Assembly (NCBI GenBank): GCA_963775935.1
Contig: CAVZKR010000005.1
Location: 209,211-273,210 of the forward strand
Direction of reading: 5' to 3'
From: an uncultured Chloroflexia bacterium
GTDB taxonomy: Bacteria > Chloroflexota > Dehalococcoidia > GIF9 > UBA5629
Length of the DNA stretch: 64,000 bases
Made by a program: the position numbers and the translations under genes. The notes under the pieces were generated by a model, which made no database searches, had not been told where the DNA came from, and saw only the letters and a list, made by a program, of their open reading frames with translations. The first letter of the stretch is position 1, and every line of letters begins with the position of its first letter. Shown here one piece after another: positions 7,451-53,244 of the stretch.

Positions 7451-7523
7451 GGGCGATTAGCTCAGCGGTTAGAGCGCCTGTCTTACACACAGGAGGTCAC
7501 AGGTCCAAATCCTGTATCGCCCA
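7451..7523 (+). tRNA. tRNA-Val (anticodon TAC), integration target
   Basis: Acceptor GGGCGAT/ATCGCCC, anticodon loop CTTACAC, unusual T-loop TCCAAAT. No CCA follows (A-TTT). Its 3' 47 nt recur at 17352 and 22052. Confidence 0.85.
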
Positions 7524-17351: not shown

Positions 17352-17398
17352 CCTGTCTTACACACAGGAGGTCACAGGTCCAAATCCTGTATCGCCCA
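17352..17398 (+). repeat. Direct repeat: exact copy of tRNA-Val(TAC) positions 27-73 (att-like), followed by CCA
   Basis: 47/47 identity to 7477-7523, read directly from the sequence. Confidence 0.9.
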
Positions 17399-41103: not shown

Positions 41104-41205
41104 GCTCGCGTCCTTGTTTGAGATTATTCTTCACCTTCAGGGATGGTGACTCCCACGGAATAGCCCCATAGTATACTTGATAAATTGTGAACTTGTCTAA
41201 AAAGT

Positions 41206-41673
41206 ATGAATTACACAAAAAGTAAAAAATCTGCACAAAAAGTCCACAAATTACACAGGCAAGTTCCAGCTAAAGTTACTGCTTATGTAGATGAAGGTAT
41301 TAAGGAATTAGTAGAAGTATTAAATACAATTCCTAATGTTTGTACCATCGAAAGTTGTGAAGGTAACACTGTAATCCCTGCACGTGTTTTATTGGATTAT
41401 GGGGTAAATTATGATACTGACGAATGCGATAGACACGCTCTAGTAGAATTTGCCGATATATTATGGGAAACAATTAAGAATTCGGAACTTGAAGGTAGTG
41501 TTCCTGCTGGAATGATAGAATGTGTCACTCTATCTTTAGAATGGAATCCTAGATACCATCCCACATTATGGATAAATGTTAAGAAGCAATATTTAAATGA
41601 TTTAGTTAATATCCTACGTCCCTTATGTAACGAGTGCAGACTGAACAAACAGCAATCCAAGAGTTTGCATTAA
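41206..41673 (+). CDS. Hypothetical protein (155 aa)
   Basis: Long ORF in AT-rich DNA with no recognisable domain and a weak RBS. Its 3' end overlaps the convergent ORF 41606-41851. Confidence 0.4.
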   Translation: MNYTKSKKSAQKVHKLHRQVPAKVTAYVDEGIKELVEVLNTIPNVCTIESCEGNTVIPARVLLDYGVNYDTDECDRHALVEFADILWETIKNSELEGSVPAGMIECVTLSLEWNPRYHPTLWINVKKQYLNDLVNILRPLCNECRLNKQQSKSLH

Positions 41674-41851
41674 TAGATGAACCATCATTATGAGGATTAA
41701 CAAACTTATATGTACTATGCAAAAGACGTTTACAAGGATGCTTGTGGTCGTGTTGAAAACTAATACACATGCAACGTCCTTGTGCAAGAGTAAGGATTCT
41801 ACGTTTTTCTTCTACCTCAGTTCCATGTGGGACTTTAATAAAGTCAGACAT
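41606..41851 (-). CDS. Hypothetical small Cys/His-rich protein (81 aa)
   Basis: AGGAGTG RBS about 9 nt upstream of the ATG at 41851. Last ORF of the minus-strand operon. The 68-nt overlap with 41206-41673 makes one of the two doubtful. Confidence 0.35.
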   Translation of the reverse strand: MSDFIKVPHGTEVEEKRRILTLAQGRCMCISFQHDHKHPCKRLLHSTYKFVNPHNDGSSINANSWIAVCSVCTRYIRDVGY

Positions 41852-41912
41852 ATTTTACTTCACTCCTACTGGTCTAATTCCTGCCTTATCCTAACTATGT
41901 AGTTGTTGTCTA

Positions 41913-42077
41913 TCACCCAATAAATATAAAAATCACAGAAATTATTATTGCGATAGCAGCCAGAACTAAGCTTACTAAAGCTATTTTATAACTTCTCTTT
42001 GATTCCGATTTTAATTTTAGCAGTATTTCTTTCTCTTCTGGTGGCATTTGTGCAACCCCATTAATGTATTCTGTCAT
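41913..42077 (-). CDS. Small single-TM protein (54 aa), absent from the supplied ORF track
   Basis: Hand-translated: MTEYINGVAQMPPEEKEILLKLKSESKRSYKIALVSLVLAAIAIIISVIFIFIG*. Strong GGGGGAGG RBS 9 nt upstream. Confidence 0.55.
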   Translation of the reverse strand: MTEYINGVAQMPPEEKEILLKLKSESKRSYKIALVSLVLAAIAIIISVIFIFIG

Positions 42078-42140
42078 TACTTAAATACCTCCCCCTTTTT
42101 CTGTGTTAATCCCATGAGCTTATATGATACATAAACCTAG

Positions 42141-42770
42141 TTAATATTTACCATTTGACCAATCATGCAATAACCACGACCGCACTGCTTTTCCTTGTGA
42201 TTTTTTATGGTGATATGGGCAAAGGCAAATAAGATTATTAATGTTATTGTTTGCTGGATTATTGTCTATATGATGTATTTCCAGATAACTTGTTTTATCA
42301 CAACCTTTCCATTGGCATCTACTGTTTGCCCTTGAAAAAACTTGTCTCTGTATTTCAACTGGTATAGGTGTACGGCTTTTTTTGCCATTTTTATTACTTT
42401 TCCTTAGTACCCTATTTATAATTTTCCAAGCTAAAATACTAATTGCACAAATAGCAGCAATAGTAATAATAATTGGTATCCAATTCTGTTTAATCCATGC
42501 AGGTAATAACGGAACTACATAAATCCCAAAAAGACAACCAAAGGCTATAATTATGAGAACTATATCTGCTGTTCTTCTTGATGCCGTACTTACCTTTTCC
42601 ATTACAAAACGAATACCAACAAAAGCTAAGATAATGATGGCGATTACCGTTAACAGTATTGTTAGATTATTACTTATCCAATTAGAAGCACCTGGTATAA
42701 AAAACCATGCAATAAAAGCAAGGATTGCTATCAATATGATAATGGCTAAGAGTTGATTACTTCTCCGCAT
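42141..42770 (-). CDS. Membrane-anchored HNH endonuclease domain protein
   Basis: Four predicted N-terminal TM helices, then a C-terminal HNH region: RCQWKGCDKTSYLEIHHIDNNPANNNINNLICLCPYHH. Confidence 0.75.
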   Translation of the reverse strand: MRRSNQLLAIIILIAILAFIAWFFIPGASNWISNNLTILLTVIAIIILAFVGIRFVMEKVSTASRRTADIVLIIIAFGCLFGIYVVPLLPAWIKQNWIPIIITIAAICAISILAWKIINRVLRKSNKNGKKSRTPIPVEIQRQVFSRANSRCQWKGCDKTSYLEIHHIDNNPANNNINNLICLCPYHHKKSQGKAVRSWLLHDWSNGKY

Positions 42771-42802
42771 AATCCCCTAAACTGGTGGAGGTTTCCTTTT
42801 CC

Positions 42803-43213
42803 CTACATAAAACCTGGAGCAATTAAATCTAAACCATCAATATGTTGGAAATGCCTTCCATTATTAGTAGCTAATGAACATTCGTGCCTTATGGCACATG
42901 CAGCAATCCAACAGTCGGCATACTCAATAGTAAAACCCATTTTGTCACATTTACATTTAATCTCTGCCCATTTCAAACAAACCAAATGGTCATAAGGTAG
43001 TACTACATAATTTTTTAAATGATTCTCTAATTTAAAAATTCTTTGATTCCCCCACATAGCTTTGTAAGCACCGTAATATAATTGTGCAACTGTCATAAAC
43101 GCCACAGCTAAACTTCTATGTGATAAACGTGGGAGGAAATAGGCAGCTTGCGTATGTCGATTAAAAATGTACGAAACTACATCAGTATCAACTACTATTC
43201 TATTGTCTGCCAA
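42803..43213 (-). CDS. PIN-domain ribonuclease (VapC-like toxin)
   Basis: N-terminal IVVDTDVVSYIF acidic motif and PIN-like length. TTG start with an AAGAGGT RBS, 14 nt after the upstream gene's stop. Confidence 0.75.
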   Translation of the reverse strand: MADNRIVVDTDVVSYIFNRHTQAAYFLPRLSHRSLAVAFMTVAQLYYGAYKAMWGNQRIFKLENHLKNYVVLPYDHLVCLKWAEIKCKCDKMGFTIEYADCWIAACAIRHECSLATNNGRHFQHIDGLDLIAPGFM

Positions 43214-43227
43214 AGTGAATTTACCTC

Positions 43228-44178
43228 TTAATTACGTGAACTTCTTACTGCTTCAAAAAATGTGTCGAAGTCAGTGTCTTCAGGCCAATCGGATGCCATC
43301 TCGTGCAAATCACCTACAGGATAAACAGATTGTTCCCTAGCTAATTCCTCAAATGTTTTCTCTCTCCAAAATGATGACAATGGAACTTGTGGAATATCAG
43401 TAAGCGAAAGTTGTGCAATCGGCTCTACATCCTTAACATGTAATAATGCCATTTTACCAGTATCAAAATCATACTTGGCATCGCCTTTAGCCCTTATAAA
43501 TTGTCTCGGATATCGCATTATTTGTTCTGCTATATCTTCATCAAATGTGCAACCGATAGGCTCTCCCGTTGAAGGTTGTAAGCGGCATCTTAATTTGTCT
43601 TCCTCTACATCTAACATCAATAATCTACCTTCAACTGTAGTATAAGAAAATTGATATCTATTAATTCTATTTATTATCTTTTCTCTTACAGATGACTCAT
43701 ATTTCAATTTTCGGTGTCCAAAGCTGCTATTTGAATTAATGTAGATATTATCTACTCCTCTATCAATAATTTTACCTGCATCTCGTAATGGTATTAATAT
43801 ACTTTGGTCAACTTCATCTGGTACTTGTTTGTCTTTAGCGATTGCGTTTATAGATACAATTAACTTGTCTGTAGCCTCTTCACCAATATCCCATTGTGGA
43901 AATTGTTGCCCATTTCTACGAAGGTCTAACCCTATACGGAAACATCCACGCCTGACTGAAACAATTTCCAATGCAGACAATATTTGCATTGCCTTGGTTG
44001 GTCTTCCCCTTTTTGTTGCAGTATCTTTTTGCAACGACTTGTGAATTAAGCGGTCAATAGCAATACTTATATTGGATATAAAAGTCGATAGGTCGTCAAA
44101 TAGAATTGTATTGTTCCGAATAGCTGAACCCTCAAATTTAAAGCGTAGAAGCGGTTTTTTGTTGAAAGACTTGTTCAT
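43228..44178 (-). CDS. Hypothetical 316-aa protein with antitoxin-like C-terminal tail
   Basis: AGGAGGG RBS. The C-terminal ...FWREKTFEELAREQSVYPVGDLHEMASDWPEDTDFDTFFEAVRSSR resembles the toxin-binding tails of PIN-associated antitoxins. The N-terminal ~260 aa are unrecognised. Confidence 0.6.
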   Translation of the reverse strand: MNKSFNKKPLLRFKFEGSAIRNNTILFDDLSTFISNISIAIDRLIHKSLQKDTATKRGRPTKAMQILSALEIVSVRRGCFRIGLDLRRNGQQFPQWDIGEEATDKLIVSINAIAKDKQVPDEVDQSILIPLRDAGKIIDRGVDNIYINSNSSFGHRKLKYESSVREKIINRINRYQFSYTTVEGRLLMLDVEEDKLRCRLQPSTGEPIGCTFDEDIAEQIMRYPRQFIRAKGDAKYDFDTGKMALLHVKDVEPIAQLSLTDIPQVPLSSFWREKTFEELAREQSVYPVGDLHEMASDWPEDTDFDTFFEAVRSSRN

Positions 44179-44314
44179 TTTGAATTTGCCCTCCTATTCC
44201 AGACATGATAAAATATCTACTGATGGAGGGTATTTTAAGCTAGTACCAATAACTTAAAATCATAATCAGAGCCTAAGACAAATAAAACTGTTCTTTTAAC
44301 TGATATTATCAAAG

Positions 44315-44340
44315 AAACCCTACTATTACAAGTAGGGTTT
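44315..44340. terminator. Perfect 10-bp hairpin (AAACCCTACT-ATTACA-AGTAGGGTTT) with flanking T/A runs
   Basis: Immediately downstream of the HTH gene stop (44343) on the minus strand. It separates that gene from the 44178 operon. Confidence 0.55.
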
Positions 44341-44342
44341 TG

Positions 44343-44579
44343 TCATTTTAGCTTATTTCTTGGTTTCTTATACCGCTTTTTCTTCGGGATACGTTTTCTT
44401 TTACTTAACTGGTCTAATAGACTGAGAACTGATTTTGAATTATTCGGATTGCGTTCTCTAACCTTCCATTTCTGTACAGCATTAACTGTTACTCCTAATT
44501 CATCTGCTAATGCTGCTAATGTCCAGCCTTTTTCCTGTAGTTCGGCAAGCTTATCTTGTATTTCAGTCATTACTACCAT
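44343..44579 (-). CDS. Small helix-turn-helix protein with basic C-terminal tail
   Basis: GWTLAALADELGVTVNAVQKWKVRERNP is an HTH segment, with a KKKRYKKPRNKLK tail. Divergent from the transposase gene. Confidence 0.65.
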   Translation of the reverse strand: MVVMTEIQDKLAELQEKGWTLAALADELGVTVNAVQKWKVRERNPNNSKSVLSLLDQLSKRKRIPKKKRYKKPRNKLK

Positions 44580-44720
44580 ACTAACATACTCTGTATGCTG
44601 TTGTCAATACGTAATAATCAAAAATAATTGCAATTTTTTCTGAAAATATACCCGAAACCTATTGACAAAACTATACAGTGTATGTTATTATAAATACAGA
44701 ATAAAGTATGGAGTAGTGAA

Positions 44721-45956
44721 ATGGATATATGGCAGGAAAGAGGAATAGCAATAGCTGAATCGAATCAAGTAGAGAAAAATAAATTAGGTTGGAAAGTGTC
44801 TTCACAATCTGGCAACGGAACGTATATTGTTAATATTGATAATGAACCATTCTGTACCTGCCAGCACTTTGAAGAGACTCATGAAAAATGCCAGCATATT
44901 TACGCTATCGAATTTATAGAGCAACAGGAAACAAGAGAGGATGGTACTACTACATGCACTAAATCAATGAGAATAACTTATAGCCAAGTATGGCCAGTAT
45001 ACAATATGGCTCAACGTAACGAGAAGAAAGAGTTTATGAGACTTCTATACGATTTATGCCAGACCATACCACAGCCAGAATATATTTTTGGCAGACCACG
45101 ATTACCTTTATCCGATATGGTATTTTGTGCAGCTTTGAAAGTATATTCAACGGTATCTGGCAGACGTTTTATGACAGACTTGGAAACTGCTTTTGAAAAA
45201 GGTTATATCTGCCAGTTACCACATTACAACTCAGTATTCAACTATCTTGAAGATGAAAGCTTAACTCCACTATTAAAGAGACTGATTGAATCAACGAGTA
45301 ATCCACTAAAGCATATTGAGACATCTTTTGCTGTAGATTCAACAGGGTTTTCCACTTGCAAATTTGACCGCTGGTATGATACGAAATATGGAAAAGAACG
45401 AAGCCAGAAGAAATGGCTCAAGGCTCACATAATGTGCGGTACTACCACTAATACAGTGGTTAGCATTGAAATCACGCCAAGTAATGTAAATGATTCTGTA
45501 ATGCTTAAGCCGCTAGTAGATAATACAGTAAAGCGATTTAATTTAGCTGAGATAAGTGCCGATAAAGCCTATGCCAGCGATAATAACCTTAATATCATCA
45601 ATGATGCAGGTTCTGTACCATACATACCTTTTAAAATGGGGGGTTCTACTGGTCGTGGTGTTAGAAAGTCTGGCTCTGCAATCTGGACGAAGATGTATCA
45701 CATGTTCATGTTTCATCAACAGGAATTCATGCAACATTATCACAAGCGTTCCAATGTGGAATCAACATTTGCCATGATTAAAATGAAGTTCGGTGATGCC
45801 ATAAGAAGCAGAGGACATGTCTCGCAAGTAAACGAATTGCTATTAAAGGTACTTTGCCACAATATCTGCGTATTGATACAGTCAATTTACGAATTGGGGA
45901 TTAGTGATACTTTTTGGGCAGAAAATGCGGTTGCACAAAAAGCAAGTCAGAATTGA
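44721..45956 (+). CDS. DDE transposase (IS4/IS5-like) with N-terminal SWIM zinc finger
   Basis: SWIM-type motif CTCQHFEETHEKCQHIYA. Candidate DDE residues in AVDSTGF, ISADKAY and SNVESTFAMIKMKFG. Confidence 0.75.
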   Translation: MDIWQERGIAIAESNQVEKNKLGWKVSSQSGNGTYIVNIDNEPFCTCQHFEETHEKCQHIYAIEFIEQQETREDGTTTCTKSMRITYSQVWPVYNMAQRNEKKEFMRLLYDLCQTIPQPEYIFGRPRLPLSDMVFCAALKVYSTVSGRRFMTDLETAFEKGYICQLPHYNSVFNYLEDESLTPLLKRLIESTSNPLKHIETSFAVDSTGFSTCKFDRWYDTKYGKERSQKKWLKAHIMCGTTTNTVVSIEITPSNVNDSVMLKPLVDNTVKRFNLAEISADKAYASDNNLNIINDAGSVPYIPFKMGGSTGRGVRKSGSAIWTKMYHMFMFHQQEFMQHYHKRSNVESTFAMIKMKFGDAIRSRGHVSQVNELLLKVLCHNICVLIQSIYELGISDTFWAENAVAQKASQN

Positions 45957-46031
45957 CACTTTTTAGACAAAGTGATAAATTGTATAGTAAGCTTTACAAT
46001 TAGTACAGTAAACTATACAGGAGGCATCGGA

Positions 46032-46412
46032 ATGCAAATAAGTAAATTTCGTATTTACAAGGCGATCATAGCGGGCGGGCTGGGCATTGCTGTGGCAATT
46101 GCGATTGCTACTGACACCGCCATAATCGCGCTGGTGGCGGTTGTTGTAGCTATTGTACTTGCGTTTATTCTGGAACGTAGCAACAAAGAGATAGTACGGG
46201 ATGAGCGAATCTCGCAGATCAGCGGGAAAGCTGCTTCTGCTTCTTTCTATAGCGTGCTTATACTGGCGGCAGTCGCCTCATTGGGCATCGCCCTTTTCCG
46301 CAGCCAGTTGCCGGAAAACGTTGTTTTTTTTGGTGCTATCATGGGCTATTTTATCTGTGTTGCATTATTACTGCATATGTGTTTTTACGCCTATTTCAGC
46401 CGGAAGCTATAG
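46032..46412 (+). CDS. DUF2178-like membrane protein
   Basis: 4 TM helices, typically paired with the downstream small XRE regulator. AGGAGG RBS upstream of the ATG at 46032. Confidence 0.6.
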   Translation: MQISKFRIYKAIIAGGLGIAVAIAIATDTAIIALVAVVVAIVLAFILERSNKEIVRDERISQISGKAASASFYSVLILAAVASLGIALFRSQLPENVVFFGAIMGYFICVALLLHMCFYAYFSRKL

Positions 46413-46422
46413 GGTGCAACAG

Positions 46423-46659
46423 ATGAAAAACAGGCTAAAGGTATTTCGTGCCATGCACGACCTCACACAGGAGGCGCTGGCCGATCAATTACGCGTGACC
46501 AGGCAGACGGTCGTCTCCATCGAAAATGGTAAATACGATCCTTCCCTGCCGCTTGCTTTCCGTATCGCCAATCTTTTTAATGTAAAAATTGAGGATGTCT
46601 TTTTATGCGAAGGTGAACCGGGTGAATTTCATGGCTATCCACCCATGTCTAAAAAGTAA
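46423..46659 (+). CDS. XRE-family HTH transcriptional regulator (78 aa)
   Basis: MKNRLKVFRAMHDLTQEALADQLRVTRQTVVSIENGKYDPSLPLAFRIANLF is a classic Cro/C1 HTH. Confidence 0.85.
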   Translation: MKNRLKVFRAMHDLTQEALADQLRVTRQTVVSIENGKYDPSLPLAFRIANLFNVKIEDVFLCEGEPGEFHGYPPMSKK

Positions 46660-46903
46660 AGCCTATGTATACAGGGATACCATCTTCGCAGTTGTTACCC
46701 CATGAGGCCAAACCTATAGGCCCCTGGGTCGGGGGTCAGCCTTGGAGAGCCGTGGGAGACCTAGGATAAGCCGTATCGATAATAAGCTAAATTTCTTATA
46801 CTAAAGCATGTAATGAGGTTTTATGTATCGGATGCAATGGATGTACGAAGTAACAACAAATTGATATCATAACTATAGAGGCTATTGGAGGGAGGTGCCG
46901 ATA

Positions 46904-48307
46904 ATGAGTAATCAACCCTCGGTATTCATTTCATCGAATGTCAAGGAATTTCGTGACTTACGTTCAGCAATAGCTTTTACTTTGCGTGAACAAGGATTTA
47001 CTGTGTATCAATCCGAAGCATCTGATTTTGATGTAAAAGGTGATCGTTCTGCAATCGAAGAATGTTTTACTAACATTAACAATAGTGATTTCTACATACT
47101 AATTGTGGGCAATAAAAAGGGTAATCTATTTGAAGATGGAATTTCTATAACGCGCCAAGAATATAGGATTGCGAGAAGTACTTTTATGTCACTTAAGCGA
47201 CCACGATTGTTCTTTTATTTACGCCGTGAAACTGAAATGGCGCTACAAAGTAATCAACATGATCTATCAACAACAGATATTGATGATTCAGACCATCTAA
47301 AATCATTTATTAATGAAATTCAAAATCCGAACATTGCTGGTGCCCCTAATTTTCTAACTCGTTTTTATGATTTCAATGACCTAATGCAATCTTTAGTTGT
47401 AAAGATGAACTTAGGCAGAAACCTTTCCGAAAAGCTAATTCGGTATTCTTTGTTATCAGAATTGCTATCAAATCTTGCACATATTTCAAATCGTAGTGGT
47501 ACTAGCATATGGCTGCCTCATCATTTTATAAGCAAAGTAAGAGAACGAGTGAAGATATCAATAGCTGATATTGATAAATACGTTAATGTCAAGAGTGATT
47601 TGGCTTTATCATTGGGTATGGCACTTGTTACAAGGACAAGGGGAAATGATTTAAGTACAAAAATTATCAAAACGGCTCTAGACGAAGGGTTATTTTTAAT
47701 TTTCGATCATACGACTGGTAGTCTAAAAGAATCTGAGTTGCATTCTGCTATCAGACAAATTATTGAAGATATCGAGTCATTCCGTACTCTCGATTATTCT
47801 GGATCGGGAAAAGATTGGAGTGCGGATATTGCTGTGGCTGTATCAGCAAAAAGGAAGGGAGATGCACTAGTAATTCCTTGCATGGACTTATCTTTGGCTT
47901 TTGCTTATTATGATCGATTGGAAAATATATTTAACGGACACTTGGCATTTTGTCGTGTATTACTTGGTTTGGATGAGCAAATAAAGCCGTATAAACGACA
48001 ACCACTTACAGTTTGGGGAGATACTGAAGACCACCAGATGAGGAAAGAGAAGGTCTCGGAGGCGGAAATATCACATCTTATTCAAAACAACATATGGCCA
48101 CTGGGAACAAAAGTCCCCAGAGACGTTTACGGAGCTAGCAGAGAAGAACAAATAAAGACTGTTAAAGATAAGATGCTATCGATTCTAGGGGAAGCCGGTA
48201 TTGATAGTATTCAATTCAAGGAAACAATGGAAAAAGCTGCCATAAATTATTTGGATAAAAATGCGGTCGCTCCAGAGGAAGGTATTCAGAATTTAGATAA
48301 TATCTGA
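46904..48307 (+). CDS. DUF4062-domain protein with uncharacterised ~350-aa C-terminal region
   Basis: N-terminus SVFISSNVKEFRDLRSAIAFTLREQG...SDFYILIVGNKKG...ISITRQEYRIA fits the DUF4062 pattern. GGAGGGAGG RBS 8 nt upstream of the ATG at 46904. Confidence 0.65.
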   Translation: MSNQPSVFISSNVKEFRDLRSAIAFTLREQGFTVYQSEASDFDVKGDRSAIEECFTNINNSDFYILIVGNKKGNLFEDGISITRQEYRIARSTFMSLKRPRLFFYLRRETEMALQSNQHDLSTTDIDDSDHLKSFINEIQNPNIAGAPNFLTRFYDFNDLMQSLVVKMNLGRNLSEKLIRYSLLSELLSNLAHISNRSGTSIWLPHHFISKVRERVKISIADIDKYVNVKSDLALSLGMALVTRTRGNDLSTKIIKTALDEGLFLIFDHTTGSLKESELHSAIRQIIEDIESFRTLDYSGSGKDWSADIAVAVSAKRKGDALVIPCMDLSLAFAYYDRLENIFNGHLAFCRVLLGLDEQIKPYKRQPLTVWGDTEDHQMRKEKVSEAEISHLIQNNIWPLGTKVPRDVYGASREEQIKTVKDKMLSILGEAGIDSIQFKETMEKAAINYLDKNAVAPEEGIQNLDNI

Positions 48308-48491
48308 ATACTATACAATGAATTATTGTTCCTCTTTCTCAAAATAGTGACTGTATAGGATCCAAGTTCATTAGGTCACTCCAGAACTAAGCACTAAACT
48401 CCCGAGAGGTAAATGTACTGACCTCCAACAACGAAGGTCATCCTGGTTAGCCATTGGACTCTTAGAATGTCGCCTTTTTTCAGGTAATGTT

Positions 48492-48935
48492 TTAACTAAT
48501 CCAGTTTAAGGCTACTGCTGCAGTCAGAAGAGGATAAGCAATAATTAATAAGAATACCGATATACCAAAAAGAATCCATGCTAATTTGGTTTTCTTTTTC
48601 CCAAACTCCTTGTTATCTTTGGTGCTTAGCCTATTTGACCAGACTGTACAGATGCCTGCAACAATGAAGAGTGTGAATGCCGAAATTAACCAATTTCCTA
48701 CGTAATTCAAACATAGAATTGAACATATCCCAGCCAATACAAGCAAACCACCTACAATGAATATAACATATGATAGTATTTTAAGTGTTTTTCTTAATTT
48801 TTCTTGATTTTCTATTTCCATAAGTTTTTCTTGTCTTGATGTAACTATTCCCTGAATTAATAGATTAACAGAAAAAACTGCAAGTCCTATGCCAATGTTT
48901 TTAAAGTGTTCAGCTATAATTCCTATGAGTTCCAT
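48492..48935 (-). CDS. Hypothetical 4-TM membrane protein
   Basis: AGGAGGG RBS, four hydrophobic helices. Convergent with the DUF4062 gene. Confidence 0.55.
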   Translation of the reverse strand: MELIGIIAEHFKNIGIGLAVFSVNLLIQGIVTSRQEKLMEIENQEKLRKTLKILSYVIFIVGGLLVLAGICSILCLNYVGNWLISAFTLFIVAGICTVWSNRLSTKDNKEFGKKKTKLAWILFGISVFLLIIAYPLLTAAVALNWIS

Positions 48936-49277
48936 TCCACTGTCCCTCCTTTTATGCCTATTCTATCATCTAGTTTAGACATATCAATATAGATATTCTA
49001 AAAATGTATACTTGATGCAATTTTTCAAAGCAGCAGAATAGGGGCATGTTTTAGAAGGCATTATCCCCAATATTACATTCTTTCTTTGGGATTGGATGGT
49101 CTGTGATCGGCTGTATCGGGATAAACTTTGATATTATCCAAATATATGAGACACCAAACTTACTATTTGGCTTAGATCCACTACCATTTTATTTGCGTTA
49201 GTATCTATAAGCGATATAGGGCAATTGTAGTAGGCTTGAGGTCGCTTCACAGCGGGCGCCGGAAGTCTTGAATTAGG

Positions 49278-49320
49278 TGGTGGGCTCGGTAGGTTTCGAA
49301 CCTTCAGCCAATCGTTAGAC
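49278..49320 (-). repeat. tRNA 3' fragment (T-arm, acceptor CGAGCCC, A, CCA), no 5' half
   Basis: The reverse complement reads ...GAAGGTTCGAAACCTACCGAGCCCACCA. The upstream part does not fold as anticodon or D arms. Confidence 0.5.
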
Positions 49321-49341
49321 CATAAAACCTTGAAAATGAAA

Positions 49342-49377
49342 AAGCCCTCGGCGTTGAAACCGGGGGCTTCCTTTTTC
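49342..49377. terminator. Bidirectional rho-independent terminator downstream of hicAB
   Basis: Stem AAGCCCTCGG/CCGGGGGCTT, 8-nt loop, T-tracts on both strands. Confidence 0.55.
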
Positions 49378-49378
49378 A

Positions 49379-49412
49379 AGATTTGGTAGCGGGGGCTGGA
49401 TTTGAACCAGCG
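49379..49412 (-). repeat. 34-nt direct repeat copy A: 3' end of an initiator-like tRNA-Met (T-arm + acceptor + CCA)
   Basis: Identical to 50037-50070. Confidence 0.85.
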
Positions 49413-49425
49413 CACGTGCGAGAAA

Positions 49426-49617
49426 TCACACTTCGATTTTTACCAATTCCTCTTTATCTTTGATCTCAAAAGGTGTATTGAGCATATCTTCAGCGCCAAT
49501 TTTTAATGATTCTATTAGCTTTTCCTTGCTCTTTTCCTGGGCGTTTACTCCTGGCAAATCAATAAGCCAGCCGATCCACCAGTCATCACTTTTTTTAATT
49601 ACTGCTCTATATTGCAT
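49426..49617 (-). CDS. hicB: HicB family antitoxin
   Basis: MQYRAVIKKSDDWWIGWLIDLPGVNAQEKSKEKLIESLK fits the HicB N-terminal fold pattern. Overlaps the hicA stop by 11 nt. Confidence 0.75.
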   Translation of the reverse strand: MQYRAVIKKSDDWWIGWLIDLPGVNAQEKSKEKLIESLKIGAEDMLNTPFEIKDKEELVKIEV

Positions 49618-49810
49618 TGCGAACCCCCTTATCCATAAACGGAATATCCAAGTCCCGGCATATTTTTCTGGCAAGCTCATCGACAATTTCACTATGCCGC
49701 GGGACTTCAGTTCTACATTTCCCTTTCTTGTAGATACTATGTCTTCTGCCCTCTCTCAATAGAAAAGCGCCATTATCGATAAGATAGCGGACAAGTTCCT
49801 TTCTTTTCAC
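49607..49810 (-). CDS. hicA: HicA family mRNA interferase toxin
   Basis: MKRKELVRYLIDNGAFLLREGRRHSIY...VPRHSEIVDELARKICRDLDIP is a typical HicA sequence. Confidence 0.8.
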   Translation of the reverse strand: MKRKELVRYLIDNGAFLLREGRRHSIYKKGKCRTEVPRHSEIVDELARKICRDLDIPFMDKGVRNAI

Positions 49811-49997
49811 GAAAGATGCTTACAACTATTTTTCTATATTATACATCGAGATGTAGGCAATTTCACAGGTAATGATTTCATGAAGTTAGCATCAATTCGG
49901 GCATAGTGCTTTTTATTATAGAAACGAAGGCAGGGCATTTCTGGTCTGCCTTTAATATACTAATAAGATAAGGTAGTCGGAGTCCTCCTTGAACTCC

Positions 49998-50032
49998 GAG
50001 ATTGCCACGTCGCTTCGCTCCTCGCAATGACA
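49998..50032. repeat. REP-like element (translates IATSLRSSQ*), copy 2
   Basis: GAGATTGCCACGTCGCTTCGCTCCTCGCAATGACA. About 27/35 identity to the reverse complement of 25540-25574. Confidence 0.55.
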
Positions 50033-50041
50033 ATTGAGATT

Positions 50042-50091
50042 TGGTAGCGGGGGCTGGATTTGAACCAGCGACCTTCGGGTTATGAGCTCGA
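50042..50091 (-). repeat. Initiator-like tRNA-Met (CAU) 3' half, copy B (anticodon arm to CCA), 5' half not recognisable
   Basis: Reverse complement: TCGAGCTCATAACCCGAAGGTCGCTGGTTCAAATCCAGCCCCCGCTACCA. This is close to the recalled E. coli tRNA-fMet 3' half. No complementary 5' acceptor or D-arm lies upstream. Confidence 0.65.
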
Positions 50092-50371
50092 TTGGATCAG
50101 GCGCTACCATCCTCTACTCAGCATCACATGTTCTCCACTGCTCGCCGCAGAGCGAGCAAATTGCTATGTGGCACACCGGATAAGGTCATGGAAATAGCAG
50201 TGGTGGCAGCGCTCCCTGATTAACTGATGCCTATGCTAAACGAGCAATACTAATCCAACCGCCCTGACAGCGTGAAGCATGGCATGGTCAGCCTGGATGT
50301 TGATCATTTGCAACGATTTCTGTGATGTTGTAACGTTAAGATTATCCACACTATACGGATAGTAAGCTTGC

Positions 50372-51157
50372 ATGTTTGAAATAAGCATTGATGCCATTAT
50401 TTTTTATATAGGCTCCTTCGGCGTGCGGTGGTATCACCTGACGGAGGTACTGACTATTGCATTGTTTCTGGGGTTTGCCGGTTATGAAGCCAGACAACTC
50501 GGCATACCTTTAAAACATATGTACAGGCTGCTGGCGATTGCCATTGCTGCGGGTCTTATTCTGGCCAAGATAACCGACATCATTGGCCGTCCCGAGTATT
50601 ACAGTACCCAGCCGGAAAAAATGTTCAGTCTGGCGGGCATGCGTGTCGCCGGAATTTTCGCTGGCTTTTTCCTGGTGAAGCTGCTGTACTGCTGGAAATT
50701 CAAACTTTCCTTCTGGCGTATCAGTGATGCCATCGTACCCGGAGCAGCACTGGGGTATGCCATATTCAGGATTGGCTGTTTTCTTAACGGCTGCTGCTAT
50801 GGGCTGGAATGCCCGGTGACGTGGCTGGCAGTGACGTATACCGGAGAGAACACCATAGCTCCGCCCAATGTACCACTCTATCCCGTCCAGCTCTACCAGG
50901 TACTGTGGGGCATAGTTACCTTTGCTGTACTATGGGTATTGAGAAGAAAATTGCAGCCGACAGGCTCGCTCTACCTGCTTTTTATTATGTTCTATGCTGC
51001 AGGCGATTTTATTATTCGCCTTTTTCGTGAGCCGGATGCCGTCCTCATCGGTATTCAAATTCAGCAGATAGTGAATGTCATCATGGTACTGGTGGCCATA
51101 CCGCTATTGTTCATCAGGAGAAAACGATGGCGCCAAAATGGAATACTGAAAAATTAA
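50372..51157 (+). CDS. lgt: Prolipoprotein diacylglyceryl transferase
   Basis: Polytopic membrane protein with GAALGYAIFRIGCFLNGCCYG and PLYPVQLYQ motifs typical of Lgt. Confidence 0.8.
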   Translation: MFEISIDAIIFYIGSFGVRWYHLTEVLTIALFLGFAGYEARQLGIPLKHMYRLLAIAIAAGLILAKITDIIGRPEYYSTQPEKMFSLAGMRVAGIFAGFFLVKLLYCWKFKLSFWRISDAIVPGAALGYAIFRIGCFLNGCCYGLECPVTWLAVTYTGENTIAPPNVPLYPVQLYQVLWGIVTFAVLWVLRRKLQPTGSLYLLFIMFYAAGDFIIRLFREPDAVLIGIQIQQIVNVIMVLVAIPLLFIRRKRWRQNGILKN

Positions 51158-51242
51158 CTACTCGTGATGAAATATGATACCTATCCTTTACCGGTAAACA
51201 TATTTACTAGCTGAAGAATTGTAAAAGGAATGTGGTATTGCT

Positions 51243-51944
51243 CTATTTCTTACAATATCCATGCAGGTTTGATCGGTAGAATTGGTCTTTTAGGTTAAAA
51301 CTTGCAGTTGTTGTTGATGCTTTATTCAACAGATTACAGGCTTCTGATTTTTTACCAGCATCATACTTAAAACAAGCAGCCCTAAAATAGTCCTCAGCTT
51401 TTGTATCAGTATTGGTTTCATATCTGGCTGCCCATATCATGGCATCCGCAGCCTGATTACTATATTTAGCTTCCTCCTTATAGGAAAGATTATTATCATC
51501 ATCATCGGCTAAATTCCAATAGCATACGACCATTTGTTTTAATATCTTATCTCTGATAGGTTGCTGTGCTTTATCGTCAGCAGATATCCATTTGAGTGCC
51601 TCGTTATAGTTTTCTGCAGCTCCTCTGTAATCCTCTTTTTTCTTTGCCGCATCTGCTTTTTGCTCGTAATCAGCACGTCGCAGGCCTCTTACTACTGTAA
51701 GAGCATCTGCCAAATCATCATTTCCCACTGTCCTGGCTCCTAAAATAGCCAGATCAACTTCTATCGGATTATCCAGATCCACTTCCATTTCGCTCTCAAT
51801 ATCATTTTCTACTGACCTGGTCGTGCCAGCTCTTGGGGCTCCTTCCCCACAGCATGAGGAAAAGTTCAGTATAAGCAAGATACTAGAAAGTATAGCCAGT
51901 ACACTAAGGGTTCGGTTCATTAGCGATGTCCTCTTCATTTTCAA
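51243..51944 (-). CDS. Hypothetical lipoprotein (helical-repeat-like)
   Basis: Signal peptide with FSSC lipobox. Starts 2 nt after the upstream gene's stop. Confidence 0.6.
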   Translation of the reverse strand: MKMKRTSLMNRTLSVLAILSSILLILNFSSCCGEGAPRAGTTRSVENDIESEMEVDLDNPIEVDLAILGARTVGNDDLADALTVVRGLRRADYEQKADAAKKKEDYRGAAENYNEALKWISADDKAQQPIRDKILKQMVVCYWNLADDDDNNLSYKEEAKYSNQAADAMIWAARYETNTDTKAEDYFRAACFKYDAGKKSEACNLLNKASTTTASFNLKDQFYRSNLHGYCKK

Positions 51945-51945
51945 A

Positions 51946-53079
51946 TTATTTTTTCATGGCATCAAAGGCAGCAAAGCGATCTTCTACTTGTGCCACACTT
52001 CTTTTGATGAATTCCTTTTGCGCGATTTTCCCAGTGCGGAAGGCATCAATGTCCGATGATTGCGCACCTGCCTTAATGATAATACGTCCTTTGCTGTCTT
52101 TTAGTACGACGGTAACATAAGTAATTCCTGATAGGTCGAGCGTTTTTATACCTGCTATCTTAACCAGTGACTGTACTGCGCTGGTGATAAAGGAGCCCGG
52201 CTTTGAGCCTACCTCCAGTTTCGCAAAATCGAGAGCGATGAGGAGTACCTGTTTTTCTTGAGTTGTCGGCTCGAAATAAATTCCCGTAACAGGTAATCCA
52301 GATGAAACTAGAAGAGCCTTTGTTTTGTCTGTCCGCTGATTTACTGCTTGCTGCGTGGTGTTAATCTGAGCTTCCAGATCACCGATAATTTCAGAGGTAA
52401 GGTCAGGTTTGCCTTCCCTCGGTATCTCTCTCCCGCTTCCCAGGGTAACTCCCAGGACTATCCCGACAACTATAATCAGGGCCACCCCGGCTGCCCCAGC
52501 TATTACCATTCGTTTTCGGTTTAGCAGTTTACTGGTTATATACAGGGAGCCAGCTTTTAGGACGTTGACTATTTTAGATGGCGATGCCGCTCTCGAAGGC
52601 GCAGCTACCGGTAGTACGCTGGCTATTTTAGATGGTACTGCTGCTCTGGAAGGGACAGCGACCGGCTTCTTAACTTCTGTGTCGATATCAGCCGAGGATT
52701 GAGCATTGATGAGCTTTTTAAGCTCCTGAGCTTCTACCTCAAGTGTATTGACCTGAGCCCGCATTTTTCGGTCGGCTGCCAGGTACTCTTCCACAGGCAG
52801 TTCCTCTATCTTGTATCTAACTTCCAGCCTGCGCAGCTCGTACGCAGAGGCCTCTATATCCCGTTGATTTTTTTCTAACTGTTTCTTGAGCTCGCCCTTT
52901 ATCCCGGCTATTTCTGATAGAGCTGCGCCGAGCCTTCCATCATAGTCTGCTTTGACGGCAGTATGTTGCTCGCCGGTTATGGAACCGTCAGCTTTGAGCT
53001 TGTCCAGGTTGGCCAGGAACCCTCTCAATTTATCGGCTGTGGTGAGAGCTTCAATAAGGTTGGCCCTGTCATCAGTCAT
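51946..53079 (-). CDS. Bitopic membrane protein: conserved N-terminal coiled-coil module, repeat linker, TM, unknown C-terminal domain
   Basis: The N-terminal ~130 aa are paralogous to 54925-55920 (LANLDKLKADGSIT...ELRRLEVRYKIEEL...LINAQSSADI). Contains a tandem 18-aa repeat and one TM helix. Confidence 0.65.
   Translation of the reverse strand: MTDDRANLIEALTTADKLRGFLANLDKLKADGSITGEQHTAVKADYDGRLGAALSEIAGIKGELKKQLEKNQRDIEASAYELRRLEVRYKIEELPVEEYLAADRKMRAQVNTLEVEAQELKKLINAQSSADIDTEVKKPVAVPSRAAVPSKIASVLPVAAPSRAASPSKIVNVLKAGSLYITSKLLNRKRMVIAGAAGVALIIVVGIVLGVTLGSGREIPREGKPDLTSEIIGDLEAQINTTQQAVNQRTDKTKALLVSSGLPVTGIYFEPTTQEKQVLLIALDFAKLEVGSKPGSFITSAVQSLVKIAGIKTLDLSGITYVTVVLKDSKGRIIIKAGAQSSDIDAFRTGKIAQKEFIKRSVAQVEDRFAAFDAMKK
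52569..52676. repeat. Tandem 54-bp repeat x2 inside the CDS (18-aa units VA.PSRAA.PSKI..VL)
   Basis: Units start at 52569 and 52623. Read directly from the sequence. Confidence 0.8.
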
Positions 53080-53204: not shown

Positions 53205-53244
53205 GGCTGGATTTGAACCAGCGACCTTCGGGTTATGATCTCGA
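53205..53244 (-). repeat. tRNA-Met-like fragment, copy C (T-arm + anticodon arm, different acceptor)
   Basis: 39/40 identity with 50052-50091. The acceptor side diverges (CTCGTGG) and there is no foldable 5' half. Confidence 0.6.

What the first reader, a model, noticed from the sequence alone, without database searches (positions are those of the whole stretch)
49278..50091. Stack of initiator-tRNA-like 3' fragments, with hicAB enclosed by 34-nt direct repeats
On the minus strand, 50042-50091 reads TCGAGCTCATAACCCGAAGGTCGCTGGTTCAAATCCAGCCCCCGCTACCA. This is nearly the 3' half of bacterial tRNA-fMet as I recall it from E. coli (GGGCTCATAACCCGAAGGTCG..GGTTCAAATCC..CCCCGCAACCA). Position 30 is A rather than G, and no 5' acceptor or D-arm lies upstream.

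Its last 34 nt (50037-50070) recur exactly at 49379-49412. The two copies enclose only hicA, hicB and a REP-like element, about 620 bp in total. A different tRNA 3' fragment lies at 49278-49320, and a 40-nt relative with another acceptor lies at 53205-53244. This looks like a repeatedly used tRNA integration hotspot with a minimal toxin-antitoxin cassette left between att scars. No intact tRNA-Met is present in the window.
Basis: partly seen in the sequence, partly recalled or inferred. Interest (0 to 1): 0.6.

Follow-up and report, generated by a model that had tools for sequence, protein, structure and literature searches.

The report
Orphan tRNA-fMet repeat stack with hicAB
Three partial copies of an initiator-tRNA 3' end and one of another Met-type tRNA mark an insertion hotspot holding a small hicAB toxin-antitoxin cassette; relatives carry the same cassette between an intact initiator tRNA and a repeat of its 3' end, with no integrase nearby.

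Summary
On the minus strand, 50091-50042 is an initiator-tRNA 3' half with A30 instead of G. Its last 34 nt (50070-50037) recur exactly at 49412-49379. A 39/40 copy lies at 53244-53205. The fragment at 49320-49278 is a decayed 3' part of a CAU-anticodon (Met-type) tRNA.

Rfam's tRNA model does align 50045-50118 end to end (33.8 bits, cut-off 29). A plain 3'-half repeat of tRNA-Val in this window scores 29.5 the same way. ARAGORN finds nothing, and the 5' part lacks tRNA hallmarks, so this is a pseudo-tRNA.

Relatives clarify the locus. Four other genomes or populations show 23S rRNA, intact tRNA-fMet, hicA, hicB, then a 24-68 nt repeat of the local tRNA 3' end. One genome holds different cargo between the same 34-nt boundaries. 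An independent contig carries this window's cassette plus trailing repeat at 98% identity with unrelated flanks.

No integrase occurs in the window or in the flanks examined at four relatives. Hence this is an orphaned stack of small integrase-less cassettes. The insertion enzymology is unresolved.

More distant hicAB relatives sit in toxin-antitoxin cassette arrays separated by partial 5S rRNA copies. My literature searches found no description of either pattern.

The parts
50037..50091 (-). C1: initiator-tRNA 3' half (anticodon stem to CCA, with A30 instead of G) plus 5 nt of flank (AATCT). Its last 34 nt form the upstream copy of the exact repeat.
   Evidence: Sequence. The 32-nt core is shared with many bona fide tRNA-fMet genes. 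The TCGAG variant is absent from 118 such loci and from the genome and viral collections.
50092..50118 (-). Pseudo 5' half, not tRNA-like. G replaces U8, there is no G18G19, the D stem has 3 pairs, and the acceptor pairs at 5 of 7 positions.
   Evidence: Rfam alignment. ARAGORN is negative. Fold z-score is -1.46. The stretch is present, with the few differences lying outside it, in a run X2 contig spanning 50062-50193.
49953..50036 (-). 84-nt stretch that other strains lack, holding a REP-like palindromic element (core 49998-50032) and a small hairpin.
   Evidence: Absent from L279. A run X3 contig appears to replace it with 9 other letters (section 5c; my reading, see the full report). The core has a depth in the thousands in wetland metagenome contigs.
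49379..49951 (-). Conserved cassette block: hairpin, promoter, hicA, hicB and the trailing 34-nt tRNA piece.
   Evidence: 98% identical to independent contig L279, with unrelated flanks on both sides.
49838..49866 (-). Promoter-like site GTGAAA-17-TATAAT upstream of hicA.
   Evidence: The site is conserved in L279 and L361.
49607..49810 (-). hicA toxin gene, 67 aa. A single-base length difference near its 3' end shifts the reading frame and extends the product by about 7 residues compared with relatives of 60-63 aa.
   Evidence: Pfam HicA_toxin at E 2e-5, 25.0 bits (cut-off 27). 23 of 25 relatives match, best E 1.6e-8. H24 is invariant.
49426..49617 (-). hicB antitoxin gene, 63 aa. It has the N-terminal HicB domain only and no DNA-binding domain. 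Its start overlaps the end of hicA.
   Evidence: More than 1495 relatives at 83-97% identity, some named HicB antitoxin by their sources. AlphaFold2 pLDDT 88.6. Best Foldseek matches are HicB and HicB-like proteins: 2dsy, 6g1c, 6g1n, 3k6q.
49379..49412 (-). C2: exact 34-nt copy of the tRNA-fMet T arm, acceptor strand, CCA and AATCT. It trails the cassette.
   Evidence: The same piece at the same junction occurs in L279.
49335..49372 (.). Intrinsic terminator hairpin with T runs on both strands, directly after C2.
   Evidence: and the sequence.
49278..49320 (-). Decayed 3' part of a CAU-anticodon tRNA. The matching genes are labelled tRNA-Met by ARAGORN; a lysidine tRNA-Ile2 cannot be told apart from the DNA.
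   Evidence: T-arm scan. Among the places in other genomes that match the T-loop-plus-acceptor pattern, tRNA-Met(CAT) is the commonest call (52), and many of these are Chloroflexota or Dehalococcoidia. Local alignment.
53205..53244 (-). C3: 39/40 copy of the anticodon stem to T arm, with the same A30. It has no acceptor strand, no CCA and no 5' half.
41178..49277 (.). Low-GC (0.34-0.45) strain-variable island next to the stack. It holds an IS4-type transposase, PIN, HNH, HTH and DUF4062 genes and no integrase.
   Evidence: Composition, Pfam. Run X1 joins 41177 to 45973, and no contig of runs X1 or X4 covers 46857-49378 (X2 and X3 were laid only from 47500 and have none there either).

Best explanation
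The locus is an orphaned stack of repeat units left by serial insertions at the 3' end of an initiator-tRNA gene. The youngest unit is a self-contained hicAB toxin-antitoxin cassette. It has its own promoter, hicA, an overlapping hicB, a trailing 34-nt copy of the tRNA T arm, acceptor strand, CCA and 5 more nt, and then a terminator.

SHOWN
- In relatives the canonical form is 23S rRNA, intact tRNA-fMet, hicAB, a repeat of the local tRNA 3' end, then a terminator.
- The cassette and its trailing piece occur as one unit in different flanking contexts.
- Different cargo occupies the same 34-nt boundaries in another genome.
- The upstream copy in this window is only a 3' half and is not a working tRNA.
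- No recombinase gene is nearby.

INFERRED
- Circular cassettes carrying one copy of the tRNA 3' segment insert by conservative site-specific recombination at the tRNA 3' end. The recombinase is supplied in trans or has been lost.
- Two classes of events stacked up here: one with a boundary at the anticodon stem (C3, C1) and one with a boundary at the T arm (C2).
- The intact tRNA was later separated from the stack or destroyed.
- hicAB acts as an ordinary HicA RNase / HicB antitoxin pair that favours retention of the cassette.
For: - Repeats are exact and non-random.
- The pseudo-tRNA status rests on several results. ARAGORN is negative. The Rfam 33.8 bits come with 4 broken pairs, comparable to the tRNA-Val repeat control at 29.5 bits. 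The fold z-score is -1.46.
- C1 and C3 share A30, a state not found in 118 real tRNA-fMet loci or in the genome and viral collections.
- Canonical arrangements occur in L280 (37/37 repeat), L311, L288 (63/68) and L362-366, all directly after 23S rRNA.
- L291 has tRNA-fMet, a 122-aa membrane-protein gene, then an exact 34-nt repeat with the same boundaries.
- Each repeat matches the T stem of the local tRNA: GCTGG, GTTGG or GTTCG.
- L279 is 98% identical from 49951 to 49379 and has unrelated flanks.
- 17 of the 46 loci whose HicB is at least 74% identical carry a tRNA-fMet piece 2-42 nt after the hicB stop. These include loci without any tRNA.
- Exact repeats of at least 20 nt flank hicAB in 9 of 53 loci, against 1.3% of 1343 control positions.
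- HicA and HicB identity is supported.
- Strain variation begins directly beside C2.
- Partial tRNAs flanking stacked and degenerate elements are the known signature of serial tRNA integration (preprint 10.1101/2020.12.28.424599, read).
Against: - No tyrosine or serine recombinase was found among the ORFs of at least 170 aa screened across the 64-kb window.
- None was found in the flanks examined in L280, L286, L305 and L312.
- No HicB relative was found in viral contigs or plasmids that could act as a vehicle.
- Left boundaries of the repeats vary: tRNA positions about 27, 32 and 42-50.
- In several loci the duplication runs on into the terminator or REP beyond the tRNA. This fits homology-driven recombination at least as well.
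- Most hicAB relatives (about 80%) have no flanking repeat.
- No intact tRNA is in the window, so the order of events is a reconstruction.
- No empty site or circular junction was observed. The public contigs break at the 34-nt repeat.
Confidence: 0.55

Rival explanations
1. The anatomy is the same but the enzymology differs. Cassettes insert by RecA-type homologous (Campbell-type) recombination. The highly conserved 3' part of a stable RNA gene plus its terminator serves as a portable homology anchor. Excision between the two repeats regenerates a circle with one anchor copy. No dedicated integrase exists.
For: - No integrase was found in the window or in the flanks examined at relatives.
- Repeat length and left boundary vary from 24 to about 140 nt.
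- Repeats often extend past the RNA gene into the terminator or REP.
- Each repeat matches the local RNA gene variant.
- The same pattern occurs at a second conserved RNA, 5S rRNA, with cassettes of unrelated toxin-antitoxin families.
Against: - 34-37 nt is near the lower limit for efficient homologous recombination.
- Four or more independent loci share nearly the same left boundary (tRNA position 42-50) and end 2-5 nt after CCA. This looks like a fixed att core.
- In L279 and in the window the crossover maps to the very 3' end of the tRNA.
Confidence: 0.25
2. The arrangement arose from one ancient insertion or a local duplication. It was then inherited vertically. The trailing copy is kept identical to the tRNA by gene conversion, or because it works as an RNA 3'-end or processing element for the hicAB message.
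For: - The junction between the hicB stop and the trailing piece looks homologous across lineages (GTGC followed by the T arm: window, L364, L367).
- hicAB coding DNA is only 70-78% identical between loci, whereas the repeats are 91-100% identical to the local tRNA.
Against: - The same cassette lies in unrelated flanks.
- Different cargo lies at the same site.
- Orphan copies occur at non-rRNA loci.
- The trailing pieces decay once away from the tRNA, which argues against their own selected function.
Confidence: 0.1
3. 50118-50042 is a functional non-canonical tRNA or tRNA-like RNA. For example, it could be a decoy or substrate linked to the neighbouring toxin.
For: - The Rfam tRNA hit is above the cut-off.
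- An 8-bp complement, TGGTAGCG/CGCTACCA, closes the molecule in the minimum-free-energy fold.
- The stretch is conserved in a second strain.
Against: - ARAGORN is negative.
- The cloverleaf has 4 broken pairs, no U8 and no G18G19, and the anticodon-stem G-C run is broken.
- The fold z-score of -1.46 is not better than for shuffled sequences.
- A plain 3'-half repeat of tRNA-Val scores similarly.
- From general knowledge, HicA toxins are not known to target initiator tRNA.
Confidence: 0.03
4. The stack is a metagenome mis-assembly, joined at conserved tRNA or REP sequence.
For: - The REP core and the tRNA 3' half are shared by very many organisms in the same samples.
- The adjacent low-GC island is absent from related strains.
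Against: - An independent ENA contig carries the cassette plus C2.
- A run X2 contig spans C1 and its upstream flank.
- In run X1, hicAB, lgt and the upstream genes have the same depth of about 6.
- Run X1 links 41177 to 45973, so part of the island is adjacent to the core in nature.
Confidence: 0.03

Closest known systems
Genomic islands and integrative elements at tRNA genes with stacked partial-tRNA repeats (for example tycheposon islands of Prochlorococcus, preprint 10.1101/2020.12.28.424599; ssrA islands of Dehalococcoides, from my own knowledge)
   Same: Direct repeats equal the 3' part of a tRNA gene. Several copies stack up by successive insertions. Degenerate remnants and partial tRNAs are scattered beside a strain-variable island.
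   Different: Those elements carry, or recently carried, a tyrosine recombinase and are kilobases long. Here the recurring unit is about 0.55-0.6 kb (hicAB only), no recombinase is near in the window or in the relatives whose flanks were examined, and in this window no intact tRNA remains.
CIMEs (cis-mobilizable elements of streptococci) and other att-flanked, integrase-less islands. This comparison is from my own knowledge and was not checked in the paper library.
   Same: A segment is bounded by attL/attR-like repeats of a tRNA or gene 3' end and lacks its own recombination module. It is thought to move only with a recombinase supplied in trans.
   Different: CIMEs are decay products of known ICEs or IMEs at the same site. 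No parent element with an integrase was found here, and the same cassette family also occurs at 5S rRNA.
HicAB type II toxin-antitoxin modules (structural examples: B. pseudomallei 6g1n/6g26, E. coli 6hpb)
   Same: The toxin gene comes first and overlaps the antitoxin gene. The HicA Pfam signature and an invariant His are present. The HicB N-terminal fold is recovered.
   Different: HicB is 63 aa and lacks the C-terminal DNA-binding domain. Sequence profiles do not reach any solved HicA or HicB.
Chromosomal integron cassette arrays
   Same: This applies to the related 5S rRNA loci. They are arrays of short, mostly toxin-antitoxin cassettes, each followed by a repeated structured unit.
   Different: There is no intI and no attC. 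The repeat unit is a partial stable-RNA gene plus a terminator, and the cassettes carry their own promoters.

Membership tests
Functional (initiator) tRNA gene | Detected as a full cloverleaf by tRNA finders | tested here: inconclusive
   ARAGORN finds none. Rfam RF00005 gives 33.8 bits against a 29-bit cut-off. A known 3'-half repeat with an unrelated 5' part scores 29.5 bits, whereas the window's four real tRNAs score 54-73 bits.
Functional (initiator) tRNA gene | Paired acceptor, D and anticodon stems, with U8 and G18G19 | tested here: not met
   There are 2 acceptor, 1 D-stem and 1 anticodon-stem non-pairs. G stands at position 8, and the D loop AGCGCCUGA has no GG.
Functional (initiator) tRNA gene | Three consecutive G-C pairs in the anticodon stem (an initiator hallmark, from established knowledge) | tested here: not met
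   A30 opposite C40 in both C1 and C3.
tRNA-integrated genomic island or integrative element | Direct repeat identical to the 3' part of the target tRNA gene | tested here: met
   34/34 and 39/40 in the window. 37/37, 34/34, 24/24 and 63/68 against intact tRNAs in L280, L291, L311 and L288.
tRNA-integrated genomic island or integrative element | Intact tRNA gene at one end | tested here: not met
   No tRNA-Met in the window. The feature is met in relatives L280, L288, L291, L311 and L362-366.
tRNA-integrated genomic island or integrative element | Element-encoded integrase | tested here: not met
   No recombinase domain in any ORF screened across the window (ORFs of at least 170 aa, plus smaller ORFs near the stack), apart from an IS4 DDE transposase. 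None in the flanks examined in L280, L286, L305 and L312.
tRNA-integrated genomic island or integrative element | Variable occupancy between strains or genomes | tested here: met
   The same cassette lies in unrelated flanks. Other cargo sits at the same site. The flanking island is absent in run X1. An empty site for hicAB itself was not observed.
HicAB toxin-antitoxin | HicA_toxin domain (PF07927) with a conserved His | tested here: met
   The window protein scores 25.0 bits (cut-off 27), E 2e-5. 23 of 25 close relatives match, best E 1.6e-8. H24 is invariant.
HicAB toxin-antitoxin | HicB N-terminal (partial RNase H-like) fold | tested here: met
   AlphaFold2 pLDDT 88.6. The top Foldseek matches are 2dsy, 6g1c, 6g1n, 3k6q and 6u0i, with probability 0.97-1.0 and query-normalised TM 0.55-0.73. 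E-values are only 0.04-0.35.
HicAB toxin-antitoxin | HicB C-terminal DNA-binding domain for autoregulation | tested here: not met
   The protein is 63 aa. The model shows three strands and one helix only.
HicAB toxin-antitoxin | Toxicity of HicA and neutralisation by HicB | not testable with these tools
   Needs an expression test in a laboratory strain.
Integron | intI integrase and attC sites | tested here: not met
   No integrase (calls above). The repeats are tRNA- or 5S-derived.

The most novel reading that the evidence does not exclude
hicAB and other small toxin-antitoxin or defence cassettes may form a so far undescribed class of integrase-less cassettes. They would use the 3' end of the last stable-RNA gene of an rRNA operon as a landing pad: tRNA-fMet after 23S in Dehalococcoidales-type genomes, and 5S rRNA in Desulfobacterota-type genomes. 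Each cassette carries a trailing partial copy of that RNA gene plus a terminator, so insertions pile up into integron-like arrays. Units can also be relocated as orphans, as in this window.
Probability: 0.25. Interest if true: 0.75.

Novelty: new variant of a known kind. Interest (0 to 1): 0.45.

Why it matters
On its own, the window shows an ordinary kind of feature: remnants of insertions at a tRNA gene beside a variable island.

The comparison with other genomes adds more. A roughly 0.6-kb toxin-antitoxin cassette recurs at the 3' end of the initiator tRNA that closes the 23S rRNA unit. More distant relatives sit in arrays separated by partial 5S rRNA copies. No recombinase was found in the flanks examined.

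If this is a real insertion system, it would explain how very small selfish or defence cassettes spread without their own recombinase. They would use near-universal RNA gene ends as safe, conserved landing sites. It would also give a simple sequence signature, repeated stable-RNA 3' ends, for finding such cassettes in metagenomes.

There is a practical point for annotators as well. A tRNA covariance-model hit near threshold can be nothing more than a 3'-half repeat.

Tried and rejected
- **Syntenic relatives.** Lgt as a query found nothing closer than 33% identity (genome collection) or 40% (metagenome collection). The exact-protein look-up found nothing. The oxidase reached 70% at best, with mixed taxa. 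No syntenic empty site could be obtained, and the lineage stays unresolved.
- **The A30 variant elsewhere.** No matches in the genome or viral collections.
- **Occupancy from public runs.** Only short contigs built from 31-letter words were available.
- **Common arms.** Sequences upstream of C1, C2 and C3 show no similarity.
- **Conserved element ends.** Nucleotide homology between cassettes of different genomes stops at the coding region, except in L279.
- **Vehicles.** No HicB relative in IMG/VR viral contigs or PLSDB plasmids.
- **Solved structures by sequence.** Neither single proteins nor profiles reached any HicA or HicB entry. NCBIfam gave nothing for either protein.
- **Rfam on L361.** The roughly 70-nt repeat flanking hicAB there matched no family.
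- **Literature.** Six full-text searches found nothing on hicAB or toxin-antitoxin cassettes at tRNA-fMet or 5S rRNA ends. Absence from this library does not prove novelty.
- **Integron reading.** Rejected: no intI and no attC.
Full report
**1. Observation**

Read on the minus strand, the region runs in this order:
- lgt (50372-51157, on the plus strand);
- a tRNA-like stretch, 50118-50042;
- a REP-like element;
- hicA (49810-49607);
- hicB (49617-49426);
- a second copy of the tRNA 3' end;
- a terminator;
- another tRNA 3' fragment (49320-49278);
- a low-GC island.

The 34 nt at 50070-50037 (CGCTGGTTCAAATCCAGCCCCCGCTACCAAATCT) recur exactly at 49412-49379, and the neighbouring bases differ on both sides. 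A third copy at 53244-53205 matches 50091-50052 at 39 of 40 positions. It diverges right after the T arm, so it has no acceptor strand. The 17-nt T arm occurs exactly three times, against 0.06 expected by chance.

**2. Is 50118-50042 a tRNA?**

ARAGORN finds four tRNAs in the window, all at 7.2-7.5 kb, and none here. Rfam's tRNA model does align 50045-50118 end to end at 33.8 bits, above the 29-bit cut-off. In that alignment two acceptor pairs, one D-stem pair and one anticodon-stem pair are broken. Position 8 is G, and the D loop has no GG. The fold is no better than that of shuffled sequences (z = -1.46).

The window supplies its own control. tRNA-Val(UAC) at 7451-7523 has an exact 47-nt repeat of its 3' part at 17352-17398, preceded by unrelated sequence. 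Rfam calls that repeat a full-length tRNA at 29.5 bits. A score near 30 is therefore what a 3' half plus arbitrary 5' sequence gives. The real tRNAs in the window score 54-73 bits.

The 32-nt core is shared with tRNA-fMet genes of many phyla. The TCGAG form (A30) is absent from those 118 loci and from the genome and viral collections. C1 and C3 therefore share a derived state and are copies of each other or of one source. They are not two independently decayed genes.

**3. The genes between the repeats**

- *HicA.* The window protein matches Pfam HicA_toxin at E 2e-5, 25.0 bits against a cut-off of 27. Of 25 close relatives, 23 match, with best E 1.6e-8. H24 is invariant.
- *HicB.* The 63-aa product has more than 1495 relatives at 83-97% identity. 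Some are named HicB antitoxin by NCBI or JGI, mostly from Dehalococcoidales MAGs. Its AlphaFold2 model (pLDDT 88.6) is closest to HicB and HicB-like structures: 2dsy, 6g1c, 6g1n, 3k6q, 6u0i. Probabilities are 0.97-1.0 and query-normalised TM-scores 0.55-0.73, though E-values are only 0.04-0.35. It lacks the usual C-terminal DNA-binding domain.
- *Signals.* A promoter-like site (GTGAAA-17-TATAAT, 49866-49838) precedes hicA, and a terminator hairpin follows C2.

**4. Related loci**

By contrast with HicB, the neighbouring housekeeping gene lgt has no relative above 40% identity, and the oxidase none above 70%.

*Canonical arrangement.* Four other genomes or populations show 23S rRNA, intact tRNA-fMet, hicA, hicB, a repeat of the tRNA 3' end, then a terminator.
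- L280: 37/37 repeat.
- L311: 24/24, plus a stretch interrupted by an indel.
- L288: 63/68, starting in the anticodon loop and running on into the terminator.
- L362-366: the repeat continues into a REP-like element.

*Same site, other cargo.* L291 has tRNA-fMet, a 122-aa membrane-protein gene on the other strand, and then an exact 34-nt repeat with the same boundaries as in the window.

*Local match.* In each genome the repeat carries the T-stem variant of the local tRNA: GCTGG, GTTGG or GTTCG.

*A discrete unit.* ENA contig L279 is 98% identical to the window from 49951 to 49379, that is from the hairpin to the last base of C2. It is unrelated on both sides. The cassette and its trailing tRNA piece are therefore one unit found in two contexts.

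*Trailing pieces and orphans.* 17 of the 46 loci whose HicB is at least 74% identical have a recognisable tRNA-fMet piece 2-42 nt after the hicB stop. These include loci with no tRNA nearby. Orphan 3'-half pseudo-tRNAs like C1 also occur in L305 and L361, and L367 and L287 hold comparable orphan stacks of shorter pieces.

*Statistics.* Exact repeats of at least 20 nt flank hicAB in 9 of 53 loci with full flanks, against 1.3% of 1343 control positions. Most relatives, however, have no such repeat.

**5. The other fragments and the island**

The fragment at 49320-49278 has the acceptor strand CGAGCCC-A-CCA. Among the places in other genomes that match the same T-loop-plus-acceptor pattern, tRNA-Met(CAT) is the commonest ARAGORN call (52), and many of these are from Chloroflexota or Dehalococcoidia. 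The fragment aligns to such a gene from the anticodon loop onward, with several mismatches. A lysidine-modified tRNA-Ile2 would carry the same DNA anticodon and cannot be excluded.

The island at 41178-49277 is low in GC (0.34-0.45). It carries an IS4 transposase, PIN, HNH, HTH and DUF4062 genes. In run X1 a related strain, at depth about 6, joins 41177 directly to 45973 across an 11-nt repeat. That strain has no contig for 46857-49378, although hicAB and lgt are present at the same depth.

The 84 nt at 49953-50036 that hold the REP-like element are absent from L279. A contig of run X3 appears to replace them with 9 other letters. One search lists that joint as 49952 to 49379. Because the two 34-nt copies are identical, I read the second coordinate as 50037. 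The REP core itself has a depth in the thousands in these metagenomes.

**6. No recombinase**

Pfam scans covered the ORFs of at least 170 aa across the window, plus the smaller ORFs around the stack. They found no tyrosine or serine recombinase, only the IS4 transposase. None lies in the flanks examined in L280, L286, L305 or L312. HicB relatives are absent from viral contigs and plasmids.

**7. Interpretation**

*Shown.* The three initiator-type pieces and the fourth fragment are tRNA 3' parts, not genes. hicAB with its trailing piece is a recurrent, discrete unit whose canonical home is the 3' end of the tRNA-fMet that closes the 23S rRNA unit. The same site takes other cargo. The window's stack has lost its tRNA.

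*Inferred.* Insertion occurs by recombination between a circular cassette carrying one copy of the tRNA 3' segment and the tRNA gene. Two boundary classes are visible, one at the anticodon stem and one at the T arm. From my own knowledge these resemble the anticodon-loop and T-loop sublocations that integrases use in tRNA genes.

I favour a site-specific recombinase acting in trans. Several independent loci share nearly the same boundaries: position 42-50 to 2-5 nt past CCA. The rival is homology-driven Campbell-type insertion. It is favoured by the lack of any integrase, by the variable repeat lengths, and by repeats that run into terminators. It cannot be excluded.

A functional tRNA-like RNA and a mis-assembly are both unlikely, for the reasons in sections 2 and 4 and.

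**8. Wider pattern (beyond the finding)**

More distant HicB relatives (57-68% identity, mostly Desulfobacterota-type MAGs) sit after the 5S rRNA gene that ends an rRNA operon. Each is followed by a partial 5S copy plus a copy of the terminator. The best example is L359: 16S, tRNAs, 23S, 5S, hicAB, then a second 5S-like copy of 72 bits.

L355, L327, L345 and L319 have arrays of three to five such repeat units. The cassettes between them encode HicAB, two ParE-type pairs, Phd/YoeB and a HEPN AbiU2 protein. Six full-text literature searches found no description of either pattern. The closest documented concept is stacked partial-tRNA repeats in tycheposon islands.

**9. Verdict**

In the window the feature is an orphaned remnant of modest interest. 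The recurrent integrase-less cassette arrangement seen in relatives is the part worth following up.

Noticed in passing
window 7451-7523 and 17352-17398: tRNA-Val(UAC) and an exact 47-nt repeat of its 3' part (anticodon stem to discriminator) bracket 9.8 kb. The segment holds TRAP transporter genes, a molybdopterin oxidoreductase, an Fe-S subunit and an IclR regulator, and no integrase. The repeat is followed by CCA, whereas the resident gene does not encode CCA. Rfam calls the repeat a tRNA at 29.5 bits.
   Followed up: partly
window 41178-45972: A 4795-nt block (IS4-type DDE transposase, PIN, HNH, HTH and two unknown genes) is bounded by an 11-nt direct repeat, TGATAAATTGT. A contig of run X1 skips it precisely.
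   Followed up: partly
window 46857-49378: This part of the island (a DUF4062 protein and a small membrane protein) has no matching contig in runs X1 or X4. X2 and X3 were laid only from 47500 and show none there either, apart from a trace of X2 depth near 49138-49371. hicAB and lgt are present at equal depth in X1. The sequence after C2 also differs completely in L279.
   Followed up: partly
window 49953-50036 (core 49998-50032): A REP-like palindromic element (GTCATTGCGAGGAGCGAAGCGACGTGGCAATC) lies in an 84-nt stretch that L279 lacks and that a run X3 contig appears to replace. The core reaches depths in the thousands in wetland metagenome contigs. Similar elements follow tRNA-fMet in L362-366 and are part of the duplicated segment there.
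   Followed up: partly
L355 1-4700; L359 5636-7029; L327 3229-6385; L345 1-2237; L319 179-1742: Arrays lie downstream of 5S rRNA. Short cassettes (HicAB, ParE-type pairs, Phd/YoeB, HEPN AbiU2) are each followed by a partial 5S rRNA copy plus a terminator copy. No integrase is obvious among the ORFs listed after the arrays; those ORFs were read but not scanned against Pfam.
   Followed up: partly
L291 4449-5091: Intact tRNA-fMet, a 122-aa membrane-protein gene on the opposite strand, then an exact 34-nt repeat of the tRNA 3' end and a terminator. This is the same site and the same boundaries as the hicAB cassette, with different cargo.
   Followed up: yes
window 49607-49640: hicA differs from L279 and from run X1 and X4 contigs by a substitution and a single-base length difference near its 3' end. 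This gives a 67-aa product with a different tail, compared with relatives of 60-63 aa.
   Followed up: no
window 50372-53079: lgt matches Pfam LGT strongly (E 1e-42) but has no relative above 40% identity in either collection. Next to it are a predicted lipoprotein (51243-51944) and a coiled-coil membrane protein (51946-53079). The latter contains a 54-nt tandem repeat at 52558-52665. This 3.1-kb segment lies between C3 and C1.
   Followed up: no
window 50042-50049 and 50102-50109: The 8-nt stretch TGGTAGCG in the pseudo 5' half is complementary to CGCTACCA, which includes the CCA end. This pairing closes the minimum-free-energy fold. It may be chance.
   Followed up: no
L361 327-360 and 560-1150: A hicAB whose HicB is 97% identical to the window's is flanked by a degenerate repeat of about 70 nt of unknown origin (no Rfam match). 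A decayed tRNA-fMet-like piece lies about 330 nt upstream of hicA.
   Followed up: partly
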